Of a stretch of DNA of 64,000 nucleotides, positions 14,501-57,727 are shown piece by piece. Where the stretch lies: contig JACDEI010000002.1 in assembly GCA_013816485.1 (NCBI GenBank), forward strand, positions 34,322 to 98,321. The letters run 5' to 3'. The notes below the pieces were generated by a model, which was not told the origin of the DNA, did not search any database, and saw only the letters and a list, made by a program, of their open reading frames with translations. The position numbers and the translations under genes are program-made. The stretch comes from Planctomycetota bacterium (GTDB lineage: Bacteria > Planctomycetota > UBA11346). Position 1 is the stretch's first letter; every line of letters starts with the position of its first letter.

Positions 14501-16217
14501 TCTGCGAGGGGGCCTTGGCCAACTGCTCGCGCAGGTGCTGGATGACCTGCTGGGTGGCATTGCCGACCTGCGCCGGTTCCTGTGCGTCATCGAGGGCGCG
14601 GTTGAGTTGCACCACGCTGGCGTCGAACTTCTCGTCGCCTTGTTGTTCGGGAGAAATGTCGGCGCGGGTTTTTGCCAGCGCACGGACCTCTTCAGCCACC
14701 GCCTTCTCACGCCCCTGGGCGGCGGTGAGGGCCTGCGATTTCTCCTTCATCAGACGCGCGAGTGCCGCGCTGTCCTCGCGCAGACGGGCGATCAGCGCTT
14801 CGTCGGTGGAATCCTTCGCTGGCGGGGCCATGCGCACGCCAGCCTCGTCACCGAGCAGACGATCCATCAGGACGAGTTGCTCGCTGATGATCGGCTTCAC
14901 GTCGCCGCCACCCTTGATGTTCTTGATGATCTCATCTGCCTTGGCGGTGCTTTCCGCAAGCGGCGCGTCTTCGTCCACCAGCGCGGTGGGCACGTGTTGC
15001 TTGTCGGCCTTCGCGCGTTCGGCGATGGTTCCGAGCACCTGCATGTAGGCTTTGCGCACCTCGCCGAGTTCCTCCTCGGCGGTGTTGCGCGCTTCGTCGG
15101 CCTGGTCGGCCATCTCCTTGAGCGCGACCATACGCTGACGGCCACGCGCCAACACCGCGGCGAGTTCGCGTGCCACGCTGGTGGTGCCGGCGATGACTTC
15201 GGCGGGAGCTCCGCTCTCGGTCGAAGGAACGGCGGAGATGGCATCCTCGCGGCCGGCGGCGACGCCGAGCGCCTGTTTGCCGGTATGTTCGAGCTGTTGT
15301 GCTTCGCTGCGCGCGCCGTTCATCGCTTCGACCAGTCCTTCGACCGGTTCGGCGACGTCCACGGCGGCAAGGCTGCCGCCCTTGAGCTGTTCGAGCAGGG
15401 CGAGATCGCCTTCCAGCAGGTTCATGCGTGGATCGGTGGCCAAACGCTCGGTCTGCTTCTGCGCGCTCTGGGCGATGCCGCGCAGACGCTGCAAGTCGTT
15501 CGACAGGGTGTCGATAACCTTCGCGCCGACATCGTAGTCGTGATAAAATTGTTCTTCATCCGGCGCGTCTTCGGGAACCGGATTCTCGTCGACATGGCGT
15601 CCGCCGTAGAGCTGGCTGTCCAAACCGAGCACGCCCTCGACCAGGGTGTTGGCACGCAGCATGTAGTTCTTCAGCGCCTGCTTGTGCTTGTCGGCCAGTT
15701 CCTCCTTCTCGGCGAGGGTGGTGCTGGCGAGTGCGCGGTTGTTGGCGAGCTGGTCTTCGATCTCGTATTTGTCCTGCTGCAACTCTTCGATCATCTGCTC
15801 GCGTTCGGCGAGCGCTTTCTTGAGGCTGTCGATCGCTTCAGTGGCTTGTTCGGCGCTGGCGGCGCTCGACTGGGACTCGGCGACCTTGGCCATGGCCTTG
15901 TCGAGGTCGGCCTTCATACGGTCGCGCTCGCCCTGGGTGTCCTGCTCGCGCTTGATGCGTTTGGCCAGCTCTTCCTGAACCTTCTTCAGCATCTCCTCTT
16001 TTTCTTTGTCGCTGATGCTGTCGACCTTGCCCGCCATGTGGCGGGTGATCACCGTATTCACCCAATCCATCAGCTGCTTCTCGGTGATGACCTTGAGCTT
16101 CTTGCTCTGGCCCTTCGTTCGCACCAGTTCCGCGGCGGTGGTGCTTTCGCCCAGGCCCGCCAGGGATTGCGACAGGTCTTCCATCGGCTGCTCGGGTTTC
16201 ATCGGCTTCGCAGGCAT
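11598..16217 (-). CDS. Giant (1539 aa) coiled-coil protein with no recognisable enzymatic domain
   Basis: One uninterrupted ORF of 4.6 kb. The composition is dominated by E/A/L/R/Q/K heptad-like repeats after a short globular N-terminal region of about 60 aa. No TM helix and no Walker motifs. Confidence 0.8.
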   Translation of the reverse strand: MPAKPMKPEQPMEDLSQSLAGLGESTTAAELVRTKGQSKKLKVITEKQLMDWVNTVITRHMAGKVDSISDKEKEEMLKKVQEELAKRIKREQDTQGERDRMKADLDKAMAKVAESQSSAASAEQATEAIDSLKKALAEREQMIEELQQDKYEIEDQLANNRALASTTLAEKEELADKHKQALKNYMLRANTLVEGVLGLDSQLYGGRHVDENPVPEDAPDEEQFYHDYDVGAKVIDTLSNDLQRLRGIAQSAQKQTERLATDPRMNLLEGDLALLEQLKGGSLAAVDVAEPVEGLVEAMNGARSEAQQLEHTGKQALGVAAGREDAISAVPSTESGAPAEVIAGTTSVARELAAVLARGRQRMVALKEMADQADEARNTAEEELGEVRKAYMQVLGTIAERAKADKQHVPTALVDEDAPLAESTAKADEIIKNIKGGGDVKPIISEQLVLMDRLLGDEAGVRMAPPAKDSTDEALIARLREDSAALARLMKEKSQALTAAQGREKAVAEEVRALAKTRADISPEQQGDEKFDASVVQLNRALDDAQEPAQVGNATQQVIQHLREQLAKAPSQTDLKRLDEERGRLASQIGQAQQKIRSLEDDVAKAKGEVAAVQARGEAQRRAEREMAQEVVRAAKGDDQLADSVTDLALASDAGDDDNLVPALREAVTGLSRRKQDLDEENKRLRGELDGLRSKAQEAETRGANLHGEQQKLSKSLTEAQQNVQELERDLSRARTDLDLMRNQAQEANSRRTVLEAERGKAFSQLTTMEQRLRDADADLAKTRGEHAALSAAATAQSEADRAVATELVSAAKDDPELAETIADLALSLEDTPSSNQPVDPATVSRQVAAGVAQLAQRRQALAQQAERLQQDTNALKWQLKEANERAVTLEGERDEMAASGKEVINLLTQQKERTVQELEAIKRSSGENEALLTRLQGRTLSAETANRQLAEALSTLASMEKDQHTGEVEDKRVDLELALSQLPDEGEDAVSIPENLSLQLAESGRKLAEALLARRAQMTTSFKRAQEDQDSLKGQLEKLRGEVATAQKHVDEQQASLRSSQAEVKAVRHELTMQGKDLSAKVQELTNTRGEVASIKAELDVAAQRVEEQDRRLQQTSTKLVEAQREQERLLRELGEQHQRGDAAEHTQTQLVQALRSLTNRQDASPTVARALTDADQADPLSKAGQKLDLARAAGPEQLASAGQAYVHALKDRLQTLAEHMEQARGELSATKRSEDALNNELAALRAAVVDRDHQLQNLADGIEKAKAEQSELLNQVMEQRRNRDDAMAELKQLREQLRLAQAEVADYQARDGASSGHMSSDIDRLRQEIEKERANRAEIESQLSEALERAQAADARLKAQRDELTKRLAERDQVIDKKDSELKDLAEQRADSKGLEAQVSALTKEISQANDRIKELETVFGAHAGATAKTTDLARELKHLHGERDSLREKLRQIEADLADANSMTAQLKSQLDEKRKDVGNSKEKVQKEMVELRDAAATVRDDNRKLKEENAGLKARIRRLTDNNASGGPSGGFKTV

Positions 16218-16469
16218 AGCAACTCCTTGAAGGGACCGGCGCTAAGGGATAGCTGGGGTCCGCTCGGTATGACATGGGCCACGATGGACCGCGGGCCGTG
16301 AAGGGCAGCCACGCCGGGCGTCCGGCGGGGGCTCTTTGTGATACACGGGACGAGTGCGAGGTGCGAGGTGCGGTGTTTCCCCGCGCGCCGTTCAGGCCGA
16401 TCAGTCGGTTGGGCCATTGACCTTCGGCATCCCCCGTACGAGGGCACCTCGCACCTCGCACCTCGCACC

Positions 16470-28650: not shown

Positions 28651-31600
28651 TTAACCAGCGGCGAGTTTCTTGAGTCCCGCGAGATCGCGTTTGCCGGTGC
28701 CGAGTTTGGGGATCGCTTCGACCTGACGCACATCGCGCGAACGCGGACGCCACAGCGCTGGCAGATGTTCCAGGCTGGCGAGCAACGTCTCCCAATCGCC
28801 GGTGAAGCCGGTGTGCAGGACGATCAGGCGTTCACCACGTGCTTCATCGGTCACCGAGGCGACGGCAATCTCGATCGCGGCATCGTTGCCGACGATGGTG
28901 AGTACCGCCTGATGGACCGCCTGTTCGACATTGTCAAGCGGCACCATCTCACCGCCGATCTTGGCGAACCGTGCGAGACGACCGGTGATGTGGATGAAAC
29001 CATCCTCATCGACCTTGCCCACGTCACCGGTGTTGTAGCCGCCGTGGACGAAGGCTTTCTCGGTCAGATCCGGGCGATCAAGGTAGCCGCGCATGCGTGA
29101 TGGGCTCTGCACCACCAGCAAGCCTTCTTGTCCGGCGGGTAGACGCTCGTTGGTCTCCGGGTTGATGGTGAAGACGTTGAGGCCGGGCAGCGGACGACCG
29201 ACGGTGCCTTCACGCGCTCGGATCTCGGTTTCGCCGCTGCGTTTGATTGGCAGCAGATTGAGCGCCACCGTCGGCGCGAGTTCGGTGCAGCCGTATCCTT
29301 CCAGCAGTTCAGCGCCGTAACGCTCACGGAACGCCTGTTTGAGATCCGGCGGGCAACGCTCCGCTCCGACCACGGCGAAACGCAGGGTTTTGAACGGTTC
29401 CGGTTCGATGCGGCGCAGGTAGCCGCGCACGAAGGTCGGTGTGCTGATGAGGAAGGTCACTCCGCTCGCCTGGGCCAAGGCACCAAGCGCCTTCGCGTCC
29501 GTCGGATCTGGATGCGCGGCGCTCGGCATGCCGAGCACCACCCCGAGCCAGAATCCAGGCACCAAACCGAAACTGTGGAACAACGGCAGCGGGCTGAGCA
29601 GTACGTCGCGCTCCGTCAGCTCCAATGCTTCGGACACGGCAGTGATGTTGGCCAGCACCTGACGATGGGTCAGCTCCACACCTTTGGGATCGCCGGTCGA
29701 ACCGGAGCTGAAGATGATTGCGGCGACATCGTCCGCCTTGGCGCGCACCAGCAGGCTGGTGGGCAGCAGGAACGCCGCGAGGGCGGCACCGAGCACGGAG
29801 AGCGCGGAGGTGGACTTCATCACCTCATCGAGTTGGACCATGCGCGCGGACAACCCCGGATCGCCGATGCGTTTGAGGTAGGGCGTCGCACTGATGATCG
29901 TCCGGATGCCGGCCATCTCGCACATGCGTTTGAGTTGGACCGGACCAGAGGTGTGGTTGAGATTCACCGCCGTGCGCCCCAGGAGTGCCAAGGCGAGGTT
30001 GGCCATCGCGCCGCCGCGTCCGGGCGGCATCAGCAAACCGACGCAGCGTTCGTCCGTGGCAAGCCCCAGGCGTTTGGCCAGGATGCGCGCCAGCGCGATC
30101 AGTTTCCAGCAGGTCAGCACACCGCCGGCATCGCGGACCGCCGGACGCAGCGGGTGACGACGCATGCGCGCCAGGGCCACTCCGGCGAGTGTGCGTTGAT
30201 CGCGATCGGCACGGGCTTGGGCGGATTCGTAACTGAGGGCCATGACGTGTGCTCGGGCCTGGGCGGCGGTGGTGGTGGACGGGAGGGGTGCGCCGATGCG
30301 CAGCGATACCGGACGCCACGGACGCGGAAACGACCACTTCGGCGCGCGGCTGGAGACGGTACCCCACAGGCCATCGAGATGGGCCGGCACCACCGGTACG
30401 CCGGCGCGTGTGGCGATGCGCTCCAGACCGGAGCGAAAGACATCCATCTGGCCGCTGGCGGTCAGCTTGCCTTCGGGAAAAATCACCACGACCTCGCCGG
30501 CTTTTGCTGCCTCGATCGCGGCATCGATGGAAGCGAGCAGTGCGCGGCGTGAATCCTCCGCCGCCACCGGGATGACACCGGCGGCGCGCAGAAACAAGCC
30601 GACGCCCGGCATCTCGACGTAACGGCGGTAGACCAGAAAGCGGCCCTGACGCGGCAAGTGGGCTCCCAGGATCAGCCCATCGCTGTAACTCACGTGGTTG
30701 CACACCACCAAGCATCCGCCGGTGGCTGGCAGGTTTTCCGCACCGCTGACGCGTACGCGGTAGGTGGTGTTGATCACCAGCGTCATCAGCCAGCCAGCGC
30801 ACTGCCGGCGGTAGTGCCATATCAGCGCGATCGCCAGGACGACGGTGAAAGCACCACAAACCATGAAGGCCTGCGCGGTGGTGAGGCCACTCGCGGTCAG
30901 CGCGTGGAACGCACCAGCGGCAATGAAGGTGCCGAACGATCCCAGTACGGTTACCGCCGCCATCACTAGGTTTCGCTGGCCGGCAGTCGCCCGCTCCTGA
31001 AGCAGCACGGTCACCGGAACTTCCCACAGGCCCGCGCCGACACCGGTCATGAACAACCAGAAGATCACGGTTTTTATCGAGGTGGTATCGGACTGAATGG
31101 ATTCAACAGCAAGTCCGTTCGCGACCGCGTTGCTGAGAGCCACGCCGTGTTCGTGTGCCGTCCAGCCCATGGCGATGAACGAGACACCAGCCAGCAGTGC
31201 ACCGATCAAGGGAAGGCCCGCTGGGAAGGCGCGCGCGATCAGCACGGGGGCCAACGCCGAGCCGATCACCATGCCCACTACCAACGAGAGGAAGATTCCG
31301 ACCGTGCCGGTCACACCCAGGCCGTACGTCACTTGCCCCAAGGACGACAATCCAGCGAAGGCGGCACCACCGAGCGCCCAGAAACCAGCGAGTGCCAACG
31401 CGGCTGACCACGTGCCCGGATTGTTGTTCAGTGACTTCACCTGCCGCCAGACCGCCCACGGCATCGCGATCGGAGTGTGTGGCGCCTGCGCCGGTAGTGC
31501 TGGAATACGATAGGCACCGATGATGCCGATCAGGCAGAGCACACCGGCGACGAGCGACAACGAGATCACCGCGCTGTAGGCCGGCAGACTGACACCCAGT

Positions 31601-32199
31601 TTCTCGGCGATCCAGCCGAGAGCTGCCGCATCAGTGCATACTGCTAAGCAGGTGCCGGCCAGGATCGCCACCACCGTCGCCGCAGCGATCAAGGCGTTGG
31701 CTTTGCTCAACCTTTCCGGCGTCACCAGTTCAGGGATGACGGCGAGCTTCGTCGGCGCGAAGAACGCGCTGGCGATCGCCAACAGCGTAAGCGCACTGAG
31801 CATCAGTTCCGGACTCGATACCGCGAAACCCCAGATGCCGAGTACCGCAATCGGCACGTCGGCAAGACGCGCTGCGCGGATGATGCGGTGTTTGGGCAGA
31901 CGATCGCCCAGGCTTCCCGCGAGGGGGGCGAGGATGATGAACGGCGCGCTGAAAAGCATCAGCGCCCAGGCACCGTATGCCGCTGCCGCCTTGCCCGCCT
32001 TATCTGGATCGTCGGGAAACGCTGTGATGGCGGCCGCTCCGAGTGCGACGATCGCCACTTGACGGAAGAGATTGTCCAGGCCAGCGCCGATGACGCAGGC
32101 GGTGACATGTCCGGCAAGTCCGCGACGTGGCGTGGTGGTGCTCGTGCTTGCAGGCAGCCCGGCTGTCTTGGCATCGGAGGTCATGGTCGAGGCATCCAT
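28651..32199 (-). CDS. Tri-domain fusion: LplT-like MFS lysophospholipid transporter + PlsC-type acyltransferase + acyl-ACP synthetase (Aas-like)
   Basis: About 420 N-terminal aa with about 12 TM helices. Acyltransferase motif VVCNHVSYSDGL (HX4D) and FPEG. C-terminal AMP-binding domain (IFSSGSTGDPKGVELTH, GYGCTE, GDVG...DEDGF). Confidence 0.8.
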   Translation of the reverse strand: MDASTMTSDAKTAGLPASTSTTTPRRGLAGHVTACVIGAGLDNLFRQVAIVALGAAAITAFPDDPDKAGKAAAAYGAWALMLFSAPFIILAPLAGSLGDRLPKHRIIRAARLADVPIAVLGIWGFAVSSPELMLSALTLLAIASAFFAPTKLAVIPELVTPERLSKANALIAAATVVAILAGTCLAVCTDAAALGWIAEKLGVSLPAYSAVISLSLVAGVLCLIGIIGAYRIPALPAQAPHTPIAMPWAVWRQVKSLNNNPGTWSAALALAGFWALGGAAFAGLSSLGQVTYGLGVTGTVGIFLSLVVGMVIGSALAPVLIARAFPAGLPLIGALLAGVSFIAMGWTAHEHGVALSNAVANGLAVESIQSDTTSIKTVIFWLFMTGVGAGLWEVPVTVLLQERATAGQRNLVMAAVTVLGSFGTFIAAGAFHALTASGLTTAQAFMVCGAFTVVLAIALIWHYRRQCAGWLMTLVINTTYRVRVSGAENLPATGGCLVVCNHVSYSDGLILGAHLPRQGRFLVYRRYVEMPGVGLFLRAAGVIPVAAEDSRRALLASIDAAIEAAKAGEVVVIFPEGKLTASGQMDVFRSGLERIATRAGVPVVPAHLDGLWGTVSSRAPKWSFPRPWRPVSLRIGAPLPSTTTAAQARAHVMALSYESAQARADRDQRTLAGVALARMRRHPLRPAVRDAGGVLTCWKLIALARILAKRLGLATDERCVGLLMPPGRGGAMANLALALLGRTAVNLNHTSGPVQLKRMCEMAGIRTIISATPYLKRIGDPGLSARMVQLDEVMKSTSALSVLGAALAAFLLPTSLLVRAKADDVAAIIFSSGSTGDPKGVELTHRQVLANITAVSEALELTERDVLLSPLPLFHSFGLVPGFWLGVVLGMPSAAHPDPTDAKALGALAQASGVTFLISTPTFVRGYLRRIEPEPFKTLRFAVVGAERCPPDLKQAFRERYGAELLEGYGCTELAPTVALNLLPIKRSGETEIRAREGTVGRPLPGLNVFTINPETNERLPAGQEGLLVVQSPSRMRGYLDRPDLTEKAFVHGGYNTGDVGKVDEDGFIHITGRLARFAKIGGEMVPLDNVEQAVHQAVLTIVGNDAAIEIAVASVTDEARGERLIVLHTGFTGDWETLLASLEHLPALWRPRSRDVRQVEAIPKLGTGKRDLAGLKKLAAG

Positions 32200-32352
32200 C
32201 GGTAGGCACTCCTTTGGTCAGGATGCCGAAAGATAACAAACGATAACATTACAGTCAAGCGCTCATTCCATGTGCTGTGCCTGGACCGACACCCAGGAAG
32301 GAGATAGACATCCATCCATCTGAGGGAGCGACCGGACTGCCACGGCGCGACC

Positions 32353-50084: not shown

Positions 50085-51164
50085 ATGACAAGTATGCTGG
50101 AGCCAAACCCCGCGTCTGCGCACATACCCCTGGTGGCAGAGGCGACTATCAGCGACAAGCAGGAGCGCAGTGGCGCGGAACTGGTAAAAGCGTCGCAACA
50201 ATTCCAGGCTGAGAACCGCTGGACGAGTTGGCGCCTGTTGCTCGAGACCCTGGTCGTTCTCGGCACCGGTCTGTGGTTGGTATTCCACTTCCAGTCGTGG
50301 CCACTCCAGGTGGTGGCCGGACTGCTGATCGGCCTGGTCCAGATTCGCTTGTTCATCTTCTATCACGACACCCTGCATGGCGCGCTGTTCAGTCGCGACC
50401 CGTTGGCGCAGGCATTGATGTCGCTGGTTGGCATCTACCTATTGACCATCCGTTCGGTGTGGAAAGAGACCCACGACCATCATCACCAGAACAACGCCCG
50501 CCAACTCGGCTCGATGATCGGCACCTTCCCCATCATCACGGTGGCGATGGCTGGACGGTTGTCGCCAGCAGCGCGTCGCCGTTACCGTATGGCCCGTCAT
50601 GGCCTGACCATGCTGGCCGGATACCTGACCGTGATGCTGGGTGGCATGATCGGCTCGGCCTTCATCCGTCAGCCGCGTCGTCACTGGGGAGCGTTGGTCA
50701 CCGTCCTCCTCCATGTCCTGGTGTTCATCACCGTGGCTTGGCATTGGGGGTGGGTGACGGCGTTGTGCGCGCAGGTTGTGCCCAGTGTCCTATCGATGGC
50801 GCTGGGGTCGTACATGTTCTACGCCCAGCATAATTTTCCTGCACTCAAACTTCCGCGGCGCGACGATTGGACCTACGCTGGTGCCGCCCTGGAGTCATCG
50901 AGCATGTTCGACATGAGCCCGATGATGCACTGGTTCACCGGCAGCATCGGGTACCACCACGTCCATCACCTCAATCACCGCATCCCGTTCTATCGTCTGC
51001 GCGAAGCGATGGAGGCGATGCCCGAACTGCAGAATCCCGGGCGAACGTCCTGGCGTCTGCGCGACATACGCGCCTGCCTCAATCTCTACCTGTGGGATCC
51101 GCGGCAGAACCGCATGCTGACCTACGCGGAAGTGCTGAAGCCCGCACCGGCCCAGGCCGCTTAG
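50085..51164 (+). CDS. Membrane fatty-acid desaturase family protein (three His boxes)
   Basis: His boxes HDTLHG, HDHHHQ and HHVHHLNH. Multiple TM helices. Confidence 0.8.
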   Translation: MTSMLEPNPASAHIPLVAEATISDKQERSGAELVKASQQFQAENRWTSWRLLLETLVVLGTGLWLVFHFQSWPLQVVAGLLIGLVQIRLFIFYHDTLHGALFSRDPLAQALMSLVGIYLLTIRSVWKETHDHHHQNNARQLGSMIGTFPIITVAMAGRLSPAARRRYRMARHGLTMLAGYLTVMLGGMIGSAFIRQPRRHWGALVTVLLHVLVFITVAWHWGWVTALCAQVVPSVLSMALGSYMFYAQHNFPALKLPRRDDWTYAGAALESSSMFDMSPMMHWFTGSIGYHHVHHLNHRIPFYRLREAMEAMPELQNPGRTSWRLRDIRACLNLYLWDPRQNRMLTYAEVLKPAPAQAA

Positions 51165-51946
51165 GTTTTCTGCGCGACGTGCAGGCACACGCCGCCGTTG
51201 AGCTTGGGTGACTCATAGCTGACGGTGAAGCCAGTGGCGGTCATATCCGCCGCCAACTGCTTGAGCGTGACGAAGTGCGCGATCGACCGGCTGATGTAGC
51301 CGTAAACCTCCGGCTCACCGTGCCACAGCCAGCCGTACACGTCGCCCATCGTTTTGAGGTAGGTGAGGTACAGCCACCGCCATGCACCGGGTTCGGGCAA
51401 TGCAAAGTCGAGGTTGGCCAAGGTGCCGCCAGGTTTCAGCACGCGGTGAATCTCACGCAGGGCGACGCGGTGATCAGGTACGTTGCGCAGACCGTAGCCG
51501 ATGGTGACCACGTCCTGCGACTCGTCCGGCAGGTCGAGCCGCATCATGTCACCGACATCGAAGCGCAGGTTGCCGATCCCCTGACCACGTTCCTTGGCGC
51601 AGGTGATCATGGTCGGCGCAGCGTCGATGCCGTGCACGCGACCATCCGGCACCAGACGTGCGAGCGCAGCCGCAAGATCGCCCGTGCCACAGGCGAGGTC
51701 GAGCACGTGTGCGTCGGTGCGCAAGGTCGGACGGATGTGCGCCAGCAACTCGTTCTTCCACGCCACGTCCATCCCGAACGAGAACGCACGCGTGAAGCGG
51801 TCGTACTTCGGCGCGATCATCTCGAACATGGTGGTGACGTACTGCTGCTTGATCGCCGGCGTGCGCAGGTGCGTCTCCACATCGAGACCGCGCAGCGTGG
51901 GGGCGGCAAGGGCGGGAGGGACGGAATGGGCGGAAGGCTCGCTCAT
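51161..51946 (-). CDS. Class I SAM-dependent methyltransferase, UbiE/MenG-like
   Basis: Matches the UbiE/COQ5 family (FEMIAPKYDRFTRAFSFGMD, VLDLACGTGDLA, LKPGG). Its start overlaps the stop of the upstream gene; last gene of the PKS operon. Confidence 0.75.
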   Translation of the reverse strand: MSEPSAHSVPPALAAPTLRGLDVETHLRTPAIKQQYVTTMFEMIAPKYDRFTRAFSFGMDVAWKNELLAHIRPTLRTDAHVLDLACGTGDLAAALARLVPDGRVHGIDAAPTMITCAKERGQGIGNLRFDVGDMMRLDLPDESQDVVTIGYGLRNVPDHRVALREIHRVLKPGGTLANLDFALPEPGAWRWLYLTYLKTMGDVYGWLWHGEPEVYGYISRSIAHFVTLKQLAADMTATGFTVSYESPKLNGGVCLHVAQKT

Positions 51947-52533
51947 GGCGTGGGCCTCTTGTCGGTCTTGGGGTTGATCGGCTTGGCGTCTGTGAGTGGC
52001 GGATCCGGCACGATGCCCAGGAACCCCAGCGCAGTGGTGAGGCTCGCCGCGGTCGGCAGCCCGCCGGTGCGGCCGATGACTACACCCTGTGCATCGGTGG
52101 CGACGATCACCGCCTGCTCGACCGTGCCACCGAGTTGTTTGCGCAGCGCTCCGGTCCAGTCCATCAAGAACACCACGTCGGTACCAGCAAGCGCCTTGGT
52201 CACGCGTTCCAATAGGCGTGGCCGGTCGCTCTCGCGCACTGCGCCGGCATCCATGATGCGCACCAACGGACGGTCCTTGGGCAAATGTGGCGTCAGCCGT
52301 TCATCCCACGCCTTGCCATCAACGCGCGATTCGATGGCGAAGAGTATCACCAACCGGTTGGCGGTCTCCGCTGTCAGGACGTGCGGCCGGCCGAGGTGGT
52401 CGTCGAGCGTCACGCCAGCGAACGGCGATTCCCCGGCAGCCAGCGACATCCACGTCAGCACCAGCAGCAGGACGGAGCCCCATCCGCCAATCGTGACGTG
52501 GTGGCGAGGTAGCGGTTTACCAACCGGTGTCAT
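51943..52533 (-). CDS. Hypothetical membrane-anchored protein (196 aa) in the PKS-MMPL operon
   Basis: Start MTPVGKPL... has a single N-terminal TM/signal helix (GWGSVLLLVLTWMSLAAG). The ATG at 52531-52533 overlaps the MMPL stop (ATGA). The ORF-track upstream extension is spurious. Confidence 0.4.
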   Translation of the reverse strand: MTPVGKPLPRHHVTIGGWGSVLLLVLTWMSLAAGESPFAGVTLDDHLGRPHVLTAETANRLVILFAIESRVDGKAWDERLTPHLPKDRPLVRIMDAGAVRESDRPRLLERVTKALAGTDVVFLMDWTGALRKQLGGTVEQAVIVATDAQGVVIGRTGGLPTAASLTTALGFLGIVPDPPLTDAKPINPKTDKRPTP

Positions 52534-54743
52534 GCGGACCTCCGACGAAACACTGCCACCAACGCCGGCGCTAACGTCAGGTTGACCACCAACCCGAGGA
52601 CGAACGCCAAGCCGAGCAGCGCACCGAAGTGCCGCGTATAACTGAATCCACCGAATAGGCACGCCAGGAACGCTCCCGCCAACGCCAGGCACGTGTTAAA
52701 TAGCACCGGCCCGACCAAACCGGCGGCGGCTTCCTCGTTGGTGGTGCGGCTGAACGCGGCGCTCATGTGGATGCTGTCGTCCATGATGATGCCGAGCGCG
52801 ATGCAGGCGATCATCGACACACCGATGTCGAGGTGCCAACCAAGCGGCGGCAGGATGGCGTAGGTGAACAACAGCGGCAGGCCAGCTACCGGGATGGCGA
52901 TCAGCGCGAGCCGCCATGAACGCAGGAAGATCAGCAGCAGCACGCCGATGGCGGGCAATGCCAGTCCCAGGCTCCAGGCGACGGACGGCACCAGCCGCTG
53001 TGAGGTCGCGTCAAGTAGCAGGCAGCCGCTGGCGGCGTAGACGGTCGCCGTGGGAAACGCCGCGCGGGCGCGGGCCATCGCTGCCTGGGCCGCCGCCGCG
53101 TTGGTGGCGACGCTACCGTCGTGTTGGCGGGCGATCAGCCGCACGGAGTGGTCCAGGCCACCATCCGCTCCGCTACCGACCAGCCGTTTCCAGACCGCCG
53201 CCGCGCCCAGTCGCAGATCGGCGAGGGGGTCATCGCTGAGCGGTTGCTTGGCTGTTGCCGCCCGCTGGTGCACCAGCGTCACCACGTCGTTCACCCCGAT
53301 GGCATAGGCGATGGTGGGATCCTGACGCAGCGCGCTGATCTGTGCATCCAAGCGCGGCAGATCGCTGATGGTCAGCGGACGTCCCAGGTCGAGCACCAGA
53401 TCAAGTGGCAGGCTGCCGGTCAGGTCGTTATCGATGCGTTCGTGCGCCAGTCGCACGGGATTGTCCGGTGGCAACGCATGCAAAAAATCTGCATCGGCGG
53501 TGATACGCGTCAGTGCCCCAACGCTGATGGCGGTCAGCAGCACATACACGCCGAGCACCACGACACGCTGGCGCGCACACCACGCGGCGATGTTTCCCAG
53601 GCGCTGGCCGAGCGGTTCACCGAATGGTCCGTGCAGCAAGCGGGTACCGGCGCGTTGTGGCAACCAACGTGCGAGCGCCCACACCCACAGGTAAGCCGAC
53701 AGCGCGGCGAACAGCACACCCGCGGCACCGAACGGCGCGAACCGCCGCACCGCCTCCACCGGACCCCACCACAGGCCGCCGACGCCGGCAATGGTGGTGA
53801 GCGTCGCCAACACCAACGGCATGGTCACCGAACGCATGGCGGTGTGCAGCGGGTGCGGCTCCTGCCGCTCCCACGCCCGTGTCAGCGCATAAAGTAGGTG
53901 GAGTGTCGTCGCCACCGCGATTCCCATCACCAGCGGCGGAAGCAGACCGAGGATGGCGTCGAGCGGTTGCCCACTCACCGCCACCAGAGCATAGGTCCAC
54001 ACTACCGCGCTCACCAGGCTGGCGAGGGGGACCAGCACCAGCAGCGGATGGCGCAGGACCATCAGCAGCAGCACCGCCAGCAGCGCGACGGTTAGCGGCA
54101 CGGTCAACCGCTGATCGTCGGCCACCACCTGGTTGATCGCCTGTTTCTGCGCCGGCAGCCCACCAAGGACAACCTCGCCGCCTGCGGGTGGCGGATGCGC
54201 GGCGAGCACTGCAGCGATGCGGGTTTCCATCAGTGCTGAGCCAGCTTCATCAAGGTGATGCGCCAGATCGACGACGATCGCCGCTGCACGCCCATCGCCG
54301 GCCACCAGCAGGTCGCGGTAGAGCGGATGGGTGAGCACGCGCGTGCGTTGCTCCACGTCCAGCGTTGCTGTCGGAATGAGTTTCGCCGGTGCCGGACCGA
54401 ACTCATCGACCGTGACGTCTTCAGCGTTGGTCAGCGCCAGAATACGCCCGGCATCTGGGAGTGTTGCGAGGTCGTCGACCACTGCCGCTTGCCAGGCGAG
54501 CACATCCGGTGCAAGCACGTCGGGCGAGAAAAAACCGATGACAAAACCCTCATCGCGCCCGAAACGCTGCTCCAGCACCTGCATCGCCGCCCACGCCGGA
54601 CCGGTGCGATCAACCCACGCTTCGTTGCCGGAGGAGATCTCCAACCGCGTCAGCAGCGGAAGCGCAGCACACGTCAAGATCAGCGCGATCAACAGGCGCA
54701 CGACGTGGCTCCGTTCATCGGCACCGTTCGACCACCAGTGCAT
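52530..54743 (-). CDS. MMPL/RND-superfamily lipid exporter (HpnN/MmpL-like)
   Basis: 737 aa with two 6-TM bundles separated by periplasmic domains. Typical RND/MMPL pattern. Its start overlaps the 3' end of the type III PKS gene by 29 nt. Confidence 0.8.
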   Translation of the reverse strand: MHWWSNGADERSHVVRLLIALILTCAALPLLTRLEISSGNEAWVDRTGPAWAAMQVLEQRFGRDEGFVIGFFSPDVLAPDVLAWQAAVVDDLATLPDAGRILALTNAEDVTVDEFGPAPAKLIPTATLDVEQRTRVLTHPLYRDLLVAGDGRAAAIVVDLAHHLDEAGSALMETRIAAVLAAHPPPAGGEVVLGGLPAQKQAINQVVADDQRLTVPLTVALLAVLLLMVLRHPLLVLVPLASLVSAVVWTYALVAVSGQPLDAILGLLPPLVMGIAVATTLHLLYALTRAWERQEPHPLHTAMRSVTMPLVLATLTTIAGVGGLWWGPVEAVRRFAPFGAAGVLFAALSAYLWVWALARWLPQRAGTRLLHGPFGEPLGQRLGNIAAWCARQRVVVLGVYVLLTAISVGALTRITADADFLHALPPDNPVRLAHERIDNDLTGSLPLDLVLDLGRPLTISDLPRLDAQISALRQDPTIAYAIGVNDVVTLVHQRAATAKQPLSDDPLADLRLGAAAVWKRLVGSGADGGLDHSVRLIARQHDGSVATNAAAAQAAMARARAAFPTATVYAASGCLLLDATSQRLVPSVAWSLGLALPAIGVLLLIFLRSWRLALIAIPVAGLPLLFTYAILPPLGWHLDIGVSMIACIALGIIMDDSIHMSAAFSRTTNEEAAAGLVGPVLFNTCLALAGAFLACLFGGFSYTRHFGALLGLAFVLGLVVNLTLAPALVAVFRRRSA

Positions 54744-55782
54744 CGGCGGTCAACCCAGGACCAAACGCCACCAGCGCGATGTCGCCACGCCAGTCACTGC
54801 GCAGTTCGCGTTCGAGGATGGTCATGATCGTCGCAGATGAACGGTTGCCGCCTTCGGCCAAGGCCGAGCGACTGTTGGCCAGAGCTCCATCGGCGAGTCC
54901 GAGTTTGCGCTCCACCGATTCGATGATGCGTGGTCCGCCTGGATGGACCGCCCAGCGCACCGAGTCCACCGCGCGGCCAGCGCCGAGCAGTTTCTCGGCG
55001 AATGGTTTGATGTCGTGGCCGATCGAGCCGTGGACCTTGGGCGAGATAGTCAGCGAGAATCCATCATGGCTCGCCTGCCACGTCATCTGGTCCTCGCTGT
55101 CCGGCAGCAGTGCGCTCCCGTCACTCGCGATGCGCAAGCCGAGGCCGACCGGCTTGGGCGCGGACTCGACCACCGCCACGCTCGCCCCATCGGCGAACAA
55201 CAGGGCAGCGACCAACTTGTCGTCTTCGGGTCCGGCCTTCAGGTGCAACGTGCTGAGTTCGCAACAGACCACGAGCACACGTGCGGTCGGTTCCGCCCGG
55301 CACGTATACCACGCCGTGCGCAGCGCCGGGATGGCGGCGTAACAGCCCATGAAGGTGATGCAGGTGCGGCGGATGTCGCTGCGCAAGCCCAACGCCTTGG
55401 CCAACTGGATATCGAGCCCAGGAGCGACCGCGCCGGTGCAGGTGGCGACCACGATGTGGGTGATGTCGCCTAAACCTTCCGGGCAGGCATTGGCCACCGC
55501 CGCGAGTGACAACGGCAGCGCCTTGGCATCAAACGCCCGGCTGCGCACGCCCATGTCCGCCGCCGGCGCATCACCGAGGGGATAGAACGCCGCGCCCTCC
55601 GCCCCATGGATGTCGAGCACCGAGTGGCGGAAACTGATCCCGGAACGTTCGGCGAAACGCAGGAAACGTTCGTGGTTCGACCCTGGGCGTAAGCGTGGCT
55701 CCATCCAGCGGACGGTTTCCTCCTGCGGCACCGGGCGTCCAGGGAAGGCATGGCCAAGATGGCTGATCCAGACTTCTCGCAT
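54715..55782 (-). CDS. Type III polyketide synthase (chalcone/stilbene-synthase family)
   Basis: Active-site Cys context FMGCYAA. GFGPG-type loop (VAFGPGLT). HPGGPRI and GNRSSAT motifs (His/Asn of the catalytic triad). 355 aa from MREVWISH. Confidence 0.85.
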   Translation of the reverse strand: MREVWISHLGHAFPGRPVPQEETVRWMEPRLRPGSNHERFLRFAERSGISFRHSVLDIHGAEGAAFYPLGDAPAADMGVRSRAFDAKALPLSLAAVANACPEGLGDITHIVVATCTGAVAPGLDIQLAKALGLRSDIRRTCITFMGCYAAIPALRTAWYTCRAEPTARVLVVCCELSTLHLKAGPEDDKLVAALLFADGASVAVVESAPKPVGLGLRIASDGSALLPDSEDQMTWQASHDGFSLTISPKVHGSIGHDIKPFAEKLLGAGRAVDSVRWAVHPGGPRIIESVERKLGLADGALANSRSALAEGGNRSSATIMTILERELRSDWRGDIALVAFGPGLTADALVVERCR

Positions 55783-55957
55783 GCGGGCTCCTGGGACGAA
55801 ACCTAGGCTGGAAGCCTCCTTCCATAAGGGGGCTTCCGTACCCGGAGGACCGCCGGCCCCGGGCCCATACGTACCCCGCATGCCGCGGCTGTACGCATGC
55901 GTATGTAGCAATGATGAGGGGGGCGATAGTTTCCCCACTCACACCTGCGAGACCGCC

Positions 55958-57727
55958 ATGACTCCGCCCATCACTGCTCCGACGCCCAAAAAGCCCCTGT
56001 CCACCGTGGTGGAGCAGGAACTGGCCAAGTACAAGTCGACCCTCGACGCGCTGCATGCTGGCGCCATCGACCCGGACAAGGTCTTCAAGCCCTTCCGTCT
56101 GGTGCAGGGCGTCTACGGCCAGCGCCAGGGCGGCGAGAACCAGATGGTGCGCATCAAGCTGAAGTACGGCGTGGTCACGCCGGAACAGATGCGCGGTCTG
56201 GCTGACACGTCGGAAAAATACACCAACGGCATCAGCCACATCACCACCCGTCAGGCGATCCAGTTCCACTACATCCCGCTCGACAACACGCCGATGCTGC
56301 TGCGCGACCTCGAAGAGGTCGGCCTGACCTGCCGCGAAGCCTGCGGCAACGCCGTGCGCGCGGTATGTGGCAGCCCCAACGCCGGCACGCTGCTCGACGA
56401 GCCGTTCGACATCGACCCCTACAGCGACGCGGTGTTCTACCACTTCCTGCGTGGACCGCTCTCGGCCAGCCTGCCGCGCAAGTTCAAGATCAGCTTCGGC
56501 TCGTCGGACAAGGATCCGCTGCAGCAGATCAACATTCAGGACATCGGCGTGATGGCCGTGACGGTCGACGGCAAGCAGGGCTTCCGCATCGTCGCCGCTG
56601 GTGGCCTCGGCTCCATGCCGGTCGCGCCGCTCAAGCTCTACGACTGCCTGCCCAAGGATCAGCTCATCCCGGTGTGCGAAGCCCTGGTGCGCGTGCACCA
56701 CAAGTACGGCGACCGCACCAATCGCGCCAAGGCGCGCCTGAAGTTCGTGCTCAAAGCCAAGGGGCCGGAAGGTTTCCGCGCGCTGTTCGAGGAACAGCTC
56801 GCCGCGGCGATCGCGGATGGCATCAAGGGCCAGGCGTTCCCCGATACGCTCAAGCCCGCCAATCCCACAGCGATTCCCGTCGTGGACGGTGAAGAAGGCG
56901 CGTGGCGCAAAGCCAACGTCCGTCCGCACCGCGAAGCCGGCTTGGCCGTCGTCTCGCTGCGCATCCCGCGCGGTGACGTCCCGGCGCGCGAGATGCGCGT
57001 GCTGGCCGATCTCTGCGAGTGGTTCAGCGACGGCGACGCGCGCACCACCAACGACCAGAACATTCTGTTCCGGCGGGTGAAGCACGAGCACTTGTCCAAG
57101 CTCTACGCCGAACTGAAGAAGCTCGGCTACCACGATCCGGCCCACGGCATCCTCGACGTGGTCAGCTGCCCAGGCGCCAGCACCTGCATGCTCGGCATCT
57201 GCCTGTCGAAGAACATGGCCACCGAACTGGAGAAGGCCCTCGCTCCGCTCGGTGCCAAGGTCAGCCTCAACGGTTCGCGCATCAACGTCAGCGGCTGCCC
57301 GAATTCCTGCGGTCAGCACCACATCGGCACCATCGGCCTGCACGGCGCGGCGTCGAAGATCGGCGACAAGCTGATCCCACACTACGTGCTGTTCGTCGGC
57401 GGTGGTGATGAAGGCGATGCGATCCACCACGGCACCATGATCGCGCGCATCCCGGCGCGGAAGGCCGCCGAGACCATCACCACGTTGGCCGGTTGGTTCG
57501 AGACCGAGCGCACGGGCACCGAGACCTTCGCCCAATACCTGCGTCGCCTGGTCGGCGCGGGTGCGGACAAGGACGTCGCGAAGGCGGCCAAGGCCGCGCT
57601 CAAGGAACGCCTGACCCCGATCTTCGCCCTCGCCGAAGGCCAGATCACCGAGGCGCACCTGCACGACTACGGCAGCGACAAGCTCTTCAGCCTCGACGAA
57701 CTCGGCGCTGGCGAGTGCATGGCCTGA
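55958..57727 (+). CDS. Ferredoxin-dependent sulfite/nitrite reductase hemoprotein (siroheme + 4Fe-4S)
   Basis: Duplicated NIR/SIR domains. Cys clusters CPGASTCMLGIC and VSGCPNSCGQHH. Start MTPPITAP at 55958; the ORF-track extension is spurious. Confidence 0.85.
   Translation: MTPPITAPTPKKPLSTVVEQELAKYKSTLDALHAGAIDPDKVFKPFRLVQGVYGQRQGGENQMVRIKLKYGVVTPEQMRGLADTSEKYTNGISHITTRQAIQFHYIPLDNTPMLLRDLEEVGLTCREACGNAVRAVCGSPNAGTLLDEPFDIDPYSDAVFYHFLRGPLSASLPRKFKISFGSSDKDPLQQINIQDIGVMAVTVDGKQGFRIVAAGGLGSMPVAPLKLYDCLPKDQLIPVCEALVRVHHKYGDRTNRAKARLKFVLKAKGPEGFRALFEEQLAAAIADGIKGQAFPDTLKPANPTAIPVVDGEEGAWRKANVRPHREAGLAVVSLRIPRGDVPAREMRVLADLCEWFSDGDARTTNDQNILFRRVKHEHLSKLYAELKKLGYHDPAHGILDVVSCPGASTCMLGICLSKNMATELEKALAPLGAKVSLNGSRINVSGCPNSCGQHHIGTIGLHGAASKIGDKLIPHYVLFVGGGDEGDAIHHGTMIARIPARKAAETITTLAGWFETERTGTETFAQYLRRLVGAGADKDVAKAAKAALKERLTPIFALAEGQITEAHLHDYGSDKLFSLDELGAGECMA

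What the first reader, a model, noticed from the sequence alone, without database searches (positions are those of the whole stretch)
51161..55782. Tightly coupled operon: type III PKS - MMPL/RND exporter - small membrane protein - UbiE-like methyltransferase
Four minus-strand genes overlap stop-to-start: PKS and MMPL by 29 nt, MMPL and the membrane protein as ATGA, the membrane protein and the methyltransferase by 4 nt. This looks like one translationally coupled unit. A type III PKS with a methyltransferase matches the known alkylresorcinol/alkylpyrone phenolic-lipid systems (Streptomyces srsABC, Azotobacter ars). Fusing that logic to a dedicated MMPL lipid exporter plus an unannotated membrane partner resembles mycobacterial PKS-MmpL coupling. 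I do not recognise this exact arrangement outside actinobacteria. It would predict an exported methylated phenolic lipid for the envelope.
Basis: partly seen in the sequence, partly recalled or inferred. Interest (0 to 1): 0.72.

Follow-up and report, generated by a model that had tools for sequence, protein, structure and literature searches.

The report
Planctomycete phenolic-lipid operon with built-in exporter
An uncultured planctomycete carries a compact four-gene operon that most likely makes a methylated alkylresorcinol lipid and exports it into the cell envelope, which is a new layout of a known pathway rather than a new kind of system.

Summary
The four minus-strand genes are real and tightly packed. 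Two ATGA start/stop overlaps are confirmed. The claimed 29-nt PKS/MMPL overlap is probably a 13-nt gap, with a GTG start at 54701 behind a GGAG.

The PKS has the Cys147-His280-Asn313 triad. It also has an invariant Trp235 at the position of ArsB Trp281, the residue that directs resorcinol rather than pyrone cyclisation.

The methyltransferase is a canonical MenG/UbiE-type enzyme.

The transporter is an MMPL/HAE3-like RND pump.

The "small membrane protein" is a secreted, cysteine-free thioredoxin-fold protein. It belongs to a rare family that is fused to a YceI lipid-binding domain in sister loci.

The PKS defines a discrete Planctomycetota clade.
- PKS plus a methyltransferase is the conserved core (14 of 15 informative loci).
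- MMPL plus the X domain is an optional cassette (8 complete loci and 2 truncated ones).
- A UbiH-like FAD monooxygenase sits in 7 sister loci but not in this window.

Type III PKS alkylresorcinol clusters are already known in Planctomycetota, and type III PKS clusters with RND transporters are known in cyanobacteria. I therefore call this a new variant of a known kind.

Two points stay open: whether the methyltransferase is dedicated or the housekeeping MenG, and whether export really occurs.

The parts
54715..55782 (-). Type III polyketide synthase, 355 aa, predicted long-chain alkylresorcinol synthase
   Evidence: Pfam Chal_sti_synt_N 84.5 bits and Chal_sti_synt_C 70.2 bits. Cys147/His280/Asn313 are invariant in 35 clade members. 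Trp235 aligns with the ArsC G284W / ArsB W281 site. Best solved relatives are the M. marinum type III PKS 7cb3 and PKS18. AGGAG lies 5 nt before ATG 55782.
52530..54701 (-). MMPL/HAE3-like RND transporter, 723 aa from GTG 54701 (737 aa if ATG 54743 is used)
   Evidence: Pfam MMPL 71.1 bits. TIGR00921 (HAE3) aligns over residues 21-730 at 113 bits, below its cut-off. Start inferred from orthologue N-termini and the GGAG spacing and from the public gene call. The second Asp of the GIIMDDSIH motif in the second half is invariant in 6 orthologues.
51943..52533 (-). X: secreted, cysteine-free thioredoxin-fold protein, 196 aa, presumed periplasmic partner of the transporter
51161..51946 (-). MenG/UbiE-family SAM-dependent methyltransferase, 261 aa
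   Evidence: Pfam Ubie_methyltran 151.1 bits. TIGR01934 scores 186 bits, above its 158.35 cut-off. The best equivalog, NF001244, scores 194 bits, below its 216 cut-off. The ATGA overlap with the X stop was read directly. A UbiE-type MT lies in the PKS cluster in 11 of 15 informative clade loci.
55783..55960 (.). 178-bp divergent intergenic region between the operon and the sulfite/nitrite reductase gene; presumed promoter region (inferred only)
   Evidence: Position read. No sigma-70-like site above the chance level and no Rfam family.

Best explanation
This is a phenolic-lipid biosynthesis-and-export operon of an uncultured Planctomycetota lineage. Only the sequence features are shown. Substrates, products, direction of transport and partner contacts are all inferred.

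Proposed steps:
1. The type III PKS loads a long-chain fatty acyl thioester on Cys147 and adds three malonyl-CoA units. Because Trp235 narrows the cavity as Trp281 does in ArsB, it closes the tetraketide by aldol condensation to a 5-alkylresorcinol. This is inferred from homology and the cavity residue.
2. The MenG/UbiE-type methyltransferase adds a methyl group to the aromatic ring, most likely on carbon. This is inferred from family membership and from the C-methylation reported for a planctomycetal cluster.
3. The proton-driven MMPL/HAE3-like RND pump extracts the lipid from the cytoplasmic membrane to the periplasmic side.
4. The secreted Cys-less thioredoxin-fold protein X works with the pump as a docking or carrier partner. 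In sister loci it is fused to a YceI lipid-binding barrel. The lipid can then reach the outer layers of the envelope. This is inferred from gene order, co-occurrence and the domain fusion.

Sister loci add a UbiH-like FAD monooxygenase and a second methyltransferase, which would take the product on to an alkyl(methoxy)methyl-quinol or quinone. This window lacks them.
For: - Domains and triad.
- Trp235 aligns with the ArsB W281 / ArsC G284W switch. The mutant chain 3vs9 scores 5.8 bits higher than wild-type 3vs8 against this PKS, and the pyrone synthases PKS18 and 7cb3 have Leu there. The role of that residue is taken from the review PMC6274091.
- The PKS belongs to a discrete clade: >=49% identity, then a drop to 42%. 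In genome contigs the clade loci (L003-L013) are Planctomycetota-lineage MAGs apart from one titled only "bacterium".
- Synteny:
  - PKS-MMPL-X-MT in the window, L003, L004 and L090.
  - PKS-MMPL-YceI::X-MT in L087, L089 and L093.
  - PKS-MMPL-YceI::X-FAD in L091.
  - PKS-MT(-MT2-FAD) in L005, L083, L012 and L092.
  - 4-nt start/stop overlaps recur in these loci.
- None of the 69 out-clade PKS loci has an MMPL homologue within 10 kb.
- X is a secreted thioredoxin fold and is fused to YceI in at least 6 strong representatives.
- Planctomycetal type III PKSs make C15/C17 alkylresorcinols, and a co-expressed methyltransferase C-methylates them (PMC10896814).
- The "S. ferox" operon described in that paper also carries a lipid/isoprenoid-binding protein.
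Against: - No experiment bears on this locus.
- The methyltransferase is no closer to PKS-linked copies (50-62% identity) than to copies standing alone in unrelated contexts (55-58%). NJ trees do not separate the two groups. It could be the housekeeping demethylmenaquinone methyltransferase.
- This PKS clade is only about 38-40% identical to the experimentally tested hid-like planctomycetal clade, judged from L048.
- No hydroxylase is present in the 64-kb window.
- The transporter scores far below the curated cut-offs of every named RND subfamily, so its substrate and direction are unknown.
- A thioredoxin fold has no established lipid-carrier role.
Confidence: 0.6

Rival explanations
1. The methyltransferase is the cell's ordinary demethylmenaquinone methyltransferase (MenG) and merely sits at the end of the operon. 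In that case the PKS product is an unmethylated alkylresorcinol, or the only link is shared regulation of membrane quinone and lipid genes.
For: It passes the MenG/UbiE subfamily model TIGR01934 (186 bits against a 158 cut-off). Copies in non-PKS contexts are just as similar (55-58% identity): one next to tatA, one in a heme operon, one elsewhere. The trees are unresolved. No second UbiE-type gene is seen in the 64-kb window.
Against: A UbiE-type methyltransferase lies in the PKS cluster in 11 of 15 informative clade loci. That holds across PKS identity from 94% to 52% and despite varying inserts, often with 4-nt overlaps. PKS and MT identities fall roughly together across the loci. No men or mqn genes are nearby.
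Confidence: 0.2
2. The PKS makes alkylpyrones or another polyketide scaffold rather than alkylresorcinols.
For: Over the full length, the best solved relatives are pyrone-forming mycobacterial enzymes, 7cb3 and PKS18. Product prediction from sequence is unreliable for type III PKSs.
Against: Trp235 is invariant at the ArsB W281 position, whereas PKS18 and 7cb3 carry Leu. Sister loci carry UbiH-like hydroxylases and UbiE/UbiG-like methyltransferases, which act on aromatic rings.
Confidence: 0.12
3. MMPL plus X is not the exporter of the PKS product. It would be a mobile cassette for another envelope lipid or for efflux and self-protection, which inserted between the PKS and MT genes.
For: About half of the clade lacks the cassette. 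The MMPL gene here is only 55% identical to that of L003, although the flanking PKS is 94% and the MT 88% identical, with a sharp break at the PKS stop codon. That suggests the cassette is exchanged independently.
Against: The cassette always sits in the same slot between PKS and MT, and none of the 69 out-clade PKS loci has an MMPL homologue within 10 kb. The X domain is nearly confined to this context: only 14 strong representative clusters exist worldwide. Fusion to the lipid-binding YceI domain fits handling of a hydrophobic product.
Confidence: 0.08

Closest known systems
Planctomycetal mtr-fdo-type III PKS operon and cyanobacterial hidABC (alkylresorcinols, hierridins; Milke et al. 2024, PMC10896814)
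   Same: Same phylum. A type III PKS is paired with a methyltransferase. Long-chain alkylresorcinols are the demonstrated products, and ring C-methylation is reported for the Gimesia maris enzyme.
   Different: The gene order is reversed (MT-oxidoreductase-PKS versus PKS...MT). The example inspected here (L048) has a generic class I methyltransferase with no UbiE-family hit, and its PKS is only 38% identical. No transporter is described for those clusters. This window lacks the oxidoreductase.
srsABC (Streptomyces griseus) and pkqABC (Mycobacterium smegmatis, Streptomyces sp. MNU77) alkylquinone / polyketide-quinone operons (PMC9927152)
   Same: The logic is PKS then methyltransferase then hydroxylase or oxidoreductase, acting on an alkylresorcinol ring. 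Sister loci of this clade have exactly that enzyme set: PKS, UbiE-type MT, a second MT and a FAD_binding_3 monooxygenase.
   Different: The window has no hydroxylase. From my own recollection, not checked here, the actinobacterial methyltransferases belong to a different family. Those operons carry no RND pump or periplasmic partner.
Azotobacter vinelandii ArsB/ArsC (cyst alkylresorcinol and alkylpyrone synthases)
   Same: Long-chain phenolic lipids destined for the envelope. The local sequence around the cyclisation switch is most similar to ArsC among solved structures, and this PKS carries the ArsB-type Trp.
   Different: The ars operon supplies its starter from dedicated type I fatty acid synthases (ArsA/ArsD). 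It has no methyltransferase or MMPL gene.
Mycobacterial PKS-MmpL coupling with MmpS accessory proteins, and the hopanoid transporter HpnN
   Same: An MMPL/HAE-type RND pump is encoded next to the synthase of a hydrophobic envelope lipid, together with a small extracytoplasmic partner. It works like these in outline.
   Different: The synthase is a type III, not a type I, PKS. X has a thioredoxin fold and follows the pump gene, so it is not an MmpS homologue. Scores against the MmpL3 and HpnN equivalog models are negligible (14.9 and 23.8 bits against cut-offs of 1400 and 1100).
Cyanobacterial type III PKS clusters with RND/MFS/ABC transporters (Larsen et al. 2021, PMC8086630)
   Same: A type III PKS gene cluster that encodes RND-family transporters, which the authors read as a sign of an extracellular role.
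   Different: Different PKS clades and accessory genes (hybrid type I/III, cytochrome b5). No UbiE-type methyltransferase and no X or YceI partner is described.
"Saltatorellus ferox" pentacistronic operon: lipoprotein, lipid/isoprenoid-binding protein, two methyltransferases, type III PKS (PMC10896814)
   Same: A type III PKS with methyltransferases and a secreted lipid-binding (YceI-like) protein, as in sister loci L087, L089, L091 and L093.
   Different: No RND pump is reported, the gene order differs, and the X domain is not reported.

Membership tests
Type III polyketide synthase (chalcone synthase superfamily) | N- and C-terminal chalcone/stilbene synthase domains above Pfam gathering scores | tested here: met
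   PF00195 scores 84.5 bits and PF02797 70.2 bits, both against a cut-off of 27.
Type III polyketide synthase (chalcone synthase superfamily) | Cys-His-Asn catalytic triad | tested here: met
   Cys147 (GC), His280 (HPGG) and Asn313 (GNRSS) are invariant in 35 aligned clade members. They align with the triad of PKS18.
Alkylresorcinol synthase (ArsB/SrsA type) | Bulky aromatic residue at the ArsB Trp281 position, which directs aldol cyclisation | tested here: met
   Trp235 aligns with the G284W site of ArsC (3vs9 versus 3vs8). PKS18 and 7cb3 have Leu there. Trp235 is invariant in the clade.
Alkylresorcinol synthase (ArsB/SrsA type) | Long-chain acyl starter tunnel and resorcinol product | not testable with these tools
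   Only a partial mapping on PKS18 was possible: Ser177 at the Cys205 position and Leu181 at the Ala209 position. This is not decisive, and the product needs expression and mass spectrometry.
srsABC / pkqABC / hidABC-type three-gene operon | Methyltransferase gene in the same operon as the PKS | tested here: met
   The MT gene is the last gene of the unit. An MT of some kind is present in 14 of 15 informative clade loci.
srsABC / pkqABC / hidABC-type three-gene operon | Hydroxylase or FAD oxidoreductase gene in the operon | tested here: not met
   tblastn with three clade FAD_binding_3 proteins finds nothing in the 64-kb window. A homologue is present in 7 sister loci: L005, L008, L083, L085, L089, L091 and L092.
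MenG/UbiE C-methyltransferase family | Match to the family models above curated cut-offs | tested here: met
   PF01209 scores 151.1 bits (cut-off 20.1) and TIGR01934 186 bits (cut-off 158.35). The equivalog models are not reached (NF001244: 194 bits against 216).
MenG/UbiE C-methyltransferase family | Acts on demethylmenaquinol or a ubiquinol precursor as the housekeeping enzyme | tested here: inconclusive
   PKS-linked and stand-alone copies are equally similar and are not separated in NJ trees. The whole genome was not available to look for a second copy.
MMPL / HAE3 RND transporters | MMPL domain and full-length RND architecture | tested here: met
   PF03176 scores 71.1 bits (cut-off 20.5). 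The TIGR00921 alignment spans residues 21-730. An RND-type motif with a conserved Asp lies in the second half.
MMPL / HAE3 RND transporters | Membership of a named subfamily (HAE3, HpnN, MmpL3, ActII) | tested here: not met
   Scores are 113 against 351.9, 37 against 752, 14.9 against 1400 and 79 against 875.
MmpS accessory proteins | N-terminal membrane anchor plus MmpS domain, gene next to mmpL | tested here: not met
   X has no Pfam hit, and its predicted fold is thioredoxin-like. Only the adjacency to the pump gene is shared.
TlpA/ResA/DsbE-type extracytoplasmic thioredoxins | Thioredoxin fold | tested here: met
TlpA/ResA/DsbE-type extracytoplasmic thioredoxins | CxxC redox motif | tested here: not met
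   The 196-aa sequence has no cysteine. The motif position reads FAIESR.
YceI-like lipid/polyisoprenoid-binding proteins | YceI domain | tested here: not met
   It is absent from the window protein. It is present N-terminal to the X domain in L087, L089, L091 and L093 and in representatives P0146, P0148, P0155 and P0157.

The most novel reading that the evidence does not exclude
The MMPL/HAE3-like pump, together with the X domain (alone, or fused to a YceI barrel), forms a previously undescribed route that carries polyketide phenolic lipids or quinols from the inner membrane to the outer envelope of a diderm bacterium. It would be comparable to HpnN for hopanoids. The MenG/UbiE-type ring methylation, plus the UbiH-like and UbiG-like enzymes in sister loci, would mean the cargo is a redox-active, ubiquinone-like "polyketide quinone" used outside the cytoplasmic membrane.
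Probability: 0.2. Interest if true: 0.7.

Novelty: new variant of a known kind. Interest (0 to 1): 0.42.

Why it matters
Alkylresorcinols and polyketide quinones are known envelope and respiratory lipids. How diderm bacteria move them out of the cytoplasmic membrane is not known.

This clade offers a compact, testable candidate: a dedicated RND pump plus a rare secreted thioredoxin-fold domain, with a domain fusion to a lipid-binding barrel. It also extends the planctomycetal type III PKS repertoire beyond the published hid-like operon and gives a clear product prediction (Trp235).

Tried and rejected
- **Promoter and terminator scan** of 49.8-56.2 kb: counts were at chance level and told nothing about co-transcription.
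- **Rfam** over 49-58 kb: no family found.
- **Foldseek against afdb50**: the library was not available.
- **Anand et al. 2015** (polyketide quinones): the paper is not held, so the composition of pkqABC was taken from PMC9927152.
- **Methyltransferase trees**: NJ trees of 128 and of 17 sequences were built to separate PKS-linked from stand-alone copies. They gave no clean separation, and support values were not printed.
- **Hydroxylase or YceI gene in the window**: searched for and not found.
- **Is X a redox enzyme?** Rejected, because it has no cysteine.
- **Is X an MmpS homologue?** Rejected on fold.
- **Is the convergent fatty-acid desaturase part of the cluster?** Not supported. It is adjacent only in the two closest relatives, which share the whole neighbourhood.
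- **RppA-like naphthalene-forming PKS feeding a menaquinone-like pathway**: unlikely, since the THN synthase 1u0m is a distant match.
Full report
**Observation**

The region 51161-55782 holds four minus-strand ORFs with coding-type GC3 of 0.73-0.78.
- Direct reading of the sequence confirms the ATGA overlap between the transporter stop and the third gene's start (52533-52530).
- It also confirms the ATGA overlap between the third gene's stop and the methyltransferase start (51946-51943).
- The 29-nt overlap between PKS and transporter exists only if ATG 54743 is the start.
  - Six orthologous transporters begin 3-5 residues before the first transmembrane helix.
  - The matching start here is GTG 54701. 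It lies 13 nt after the PKS stop and has GGAG 7 nt upstream.
  - The public gene call on an identical contig (GCA_020064105.1) uses that start.
- Shine-Dalgarno-like motifs precede all four starts.

So the unit is tightly packed, with two true overlaps and one short gap. Pattern scans for promoters and terminators gave counts at chance level, and no Rfam family is present.

**The four products**

*PKS.* It hits both chalcone/stilbene synthase domains. Cys147, His280 and Asn313 are invariant in an alignment of 35 clade members.
- Over the full length, the closest solved structures are a Mycobacterium marinum type III PKS (7cb3, 151 bits) and PKS18 (142 bits).
- Around the cyclisation pocket, the best solved match is Azotobacter ArsC. 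The ArsC G284W mutant chain (3vs9) scores 5.8 bits higher than the wild type (3vs8), because this PKS has Trp235 at exactly that column: DQMTWQAS against DTMTWVPG in the mutant and DTMTGVPG in the wild type.
- PKS18 and 7cb3 have Leu at that column.
- According to the review PMC6274091, Trp281 of ArsB (Gly284 of ArsC) decides between aldol closure to alkylresorcinols and lactonisation to alkylpyrones.
- Trp235 is invariant in the clade. I therefore predict an alkylresorcinol synthase. This is a prediction from one known determinant, not a demonstration.

*Methyltransferase.* It is a canonical MenG/UbiE-family enzyme: PF01209 at 151 bits, and TIGR01934 at 186 bits against a cut-off of 158.

*Transporter.* It is an MMPL-domain RND protein whose best full-length model is HAE3. 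It scores far below the cut-off of every named subfamily, including HpnN and MmpL3. The second Asp of the GIIMDDSIH motif in its second half is invariant in six orthologues, while the equivalent helix in the first half has no Asp.

*Third protein (X).* It has no Pfam or NCBIfam match.
- It has an N-terminal hydrophobic signal-like segment followed by a conserved domain and a conserved proline-rich tail.
- AlphaFold2 on 22 sequences gives pLDDT 86.
- It has no cysteine at all, so it cannot be a thiol-disulfide enzyme.

**Origin and relatives**

- The PKS is identical to one in a Planctomycetota MAG. X is identical to a protein annotated from a "Planctomycetes bacterium" MAG on a 228-kb contig.
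- The neighbouring genes (BatA/VWA proteins, a PQQ-propeller protein, a Ser/Thr kinase) fit that phylum.
- The PKS search shows a discrete clade of about 80 protein clusters at 49-97% identity. Identity then drops to 42% and below, where hits include Bacteroidota enzymes.
- Among one genome per species for 185,579 species, 11 loci fall in the clade. Ten are titled as Planctomycetota-lineage MAGs (two of them labelled Brocadiaceae or Kuenenia) and one only as "bacterium".

**Synteny**

I combined tblastn of the window's proteins against all fetched loci with gene calls from the encoding contigs. That gives 15 distinct clade loci with enough sequence after the PKS.

| Arrangement | Loci |
|---|---|
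| PKS-MMPL-X-MT | window, L003, L004, L090 |
| PKS-MMPL-YceI::X-MT | L087, L089, L093 |
| PKS-MMPL-YceI::X-FAD monooxygenase, with a convergent second-type MT | L091 |
| PKS-MT, with or without a second MT, a FAD monooxygenase and DUF4337 | L005, L083 (=L006), L012, L092 |
| PKS followed by a different class I MT, with a divergent FAD monooxygenase | L085 (=L009) |
| PKS-YceI, in L011 followed by a class I MT | L007, L011 |
| PKS-MMPL, then the contig ends | L008, L010 |

From this I draw four points.
- PKS plus a methyltransferase is the conserved core (14 of 15 loci; UbiE-type in 11).
- MMPL plus the X domain is an optional cassette that always sits between PKS and MT.
- A UbiH-like FAD monooxygenase accompanies the PKS in 7 loci but has no homologue anywhere in this 64-kb window.
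- None of the 69 PKS loci outside the clade (Alphaproteobacteria, Acidobacteriota, Cytophagales and others) has an MMPL homologue within 10 kb.

Start/stop overlaps of 1-4 nt recur at the same junctions in L083, L085, L087, L089 and L090.

**The X domain**

- An exhaustive profile search of 1.84 billion representative proteins finds only 38 hits at E<=1e-3 and 14 at E<=1e-10.
- At least six of the strong hits carry a YceI domain N-terminal to the X domain.
- In every complete locus that has the MMPL gene, the next gene carries the X domain. It stands alone in four loci and is fused to YceI in four.
- YceI-like proteins are secreted barrels annotated as binding lipids or polyisoprenoids. That is my own knowledge of the family, and Milke et al. 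describe a "lipid/isoprenoid-binding protein" in the "Saltatorellus ferox" type III PKS operon (PMC10896814).
- The fusion and the strict pairing argue that X acts in the periplasm together with the pump on a hydrophobic cargo. The actual role (docking, carrier or other) is inferred.

**Is the methyltransferase dedicated?**

This stays open.
- Its homologues form a smooth continuum at 50-63% identity.
- Copies at 55-58% identity stand in unrelated contexts: next to tatA (L094), inside a heme biosynthesis operon of a Gemmatimonadaceae MAG (L095), and elsewhere (L096).
- PKS-linked copies from the clade are 50-62% identical, which is no closer.
- Neighbour-joining trees do not separate the linked copies from the stand-alone ones.
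- The repeated adjacency to the PKS across wide divergence argues for a functional link.
- The enzyme could still double as, or simply be, the housekeeping MenG.

**Comparison with known systems**

- Type III PKS alkylresorcinol clusters are already established in Planctomycetota.
  - 58 of 96 PKS genes lie in an MT-oxidoreductase-PKS operon related to cyanobacterial hidABC.
  - The PKSs make C15/C17 alkylresorcinols.
  - The Gimesia maris accessory genes add one C-methyl group (PMC10896814).
- I found that arrangement in an Isosphaeraceae MAG (L048). Its methyltransferase has no UbiE-family hit, and its PKS is 38% identical to the one here. The window therefore belongs to a different PKS clade, with a different methyltransferase family and gene order.
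- The actinobacterial srsABC and pkqABC operons (PKS, methyltransferase, oxidoreductase) give alkylbenzoquinones that can serve as electron carriers (PMC9927152). Sister loci of this clade carry the same enzyme logic. This window lacks the oxygenase.
- Type III PKS clusters that encode RND, MFS or ABC transporters have been described in cyanobacteria (PMC8086630). A transporter next to a type III PKS is therefore not confined to actinobacteria.
- A full-text search found no paper that combines a type III PKS, an MmpL-type pump and YceI.

**Verdict**

The system is a new variant of a known kind, not a new kind.
- The new elements are the integrated MMPL/HAE3-like pump and the rare secreted thioredoxin-fold domain, with its fusion to YceI.
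- Confidence in the biosynthesis-plus-export model is about 0.6.
- The main uncertainties are the methyltransferase's role, the real product, and whether the pump and X handle that product.

Noticed in passing
window 52530-54720, compared with L003 and L004: The transporter gene is a mosaic outlier. Nucleotide identity to L003 falls from about 0.85 across the PKS to about 0.58 across the MMPL gene, with a sharp edge at the PKS stop codon, and recovers in X and the MT. At protein level the PKS is 94%, the MT 88% and the MMPL 55% identical. L003 and L004 differ less from each other over the same stretch. This suggests the pump allele was exchanged by recombination or evolves much faster.
   Followed up: partly
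window 50085-51164 (+): A fatty-acid desaturase family gene (PF00487; three His boxes) converges on the methyltransferase gene, and the two stop codons overlap (51161-51164). It is adjacent only in the two closest relatives, which share the whole neighbourhood. A link to the operon, either as supplier of an unsaturated starter or as a substitute oxygenase, is pure speculation.
   Followed up: partly
window 51943-52010 (C-terminus of X): X ends in a strongly conserved proline-rich tail (IVPxPPLxDxxxxNPKTDxxxxP; several invariant residues in 22 sequences). The structure model gives it low confidence. It could be a tether or an interaction motif.
   Followed up: no
L083 10005-12575; also L005, L092: Sister loci without the pump carry PKS, a UbiE-type MT, a second class I MT, a FAD_binding_3 monooxygenase and DUF4337. 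This set mirrors the ubiquinone ring-modifying enzymes UbiE, UbiG and UbiH and points to an alkyl-methoxy-methyl-quinone product.
   Followed up: partly
P0214 (421 aa): One homologue of the methyltransferase (57% identity) is listed with an additional ICMT-type methyltransferase domain (PF04140). From memory, that is the family of the methyltransferases partnered with type III PKSs in Bacillus and Streptomyces. Its genomic context was not examined.
   Followed up: no
window 11601-16241 (-): A 1547-aa ORF with no Pfam domain encodes an Ala/Leu/Glu/Gln/Arg-rich protein that looks like a coiled coil. It explains the strong AT skew (-0.33) at 12-16 kb.
   Followed up: partly
window 28654-32217 (-): An 1188-aa fusion of an MFS transporter, a PlsC-type acyltransferase and an AMP-binding (acyl-activating) domain. 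It resembles an LplT/Aas lysophospholipid recycling fusion. It lies about 20 kb from the operon and no link to it is evident.
   Followed up: no
window 55961-57727 (+): A ferredoxin-type sulfite/nitrite reductase gene lies divergent to the operon. It is 99% identical in L003 over the part present there, and is conserved next to the PKS only in the closest relatives.
   Followed up: no
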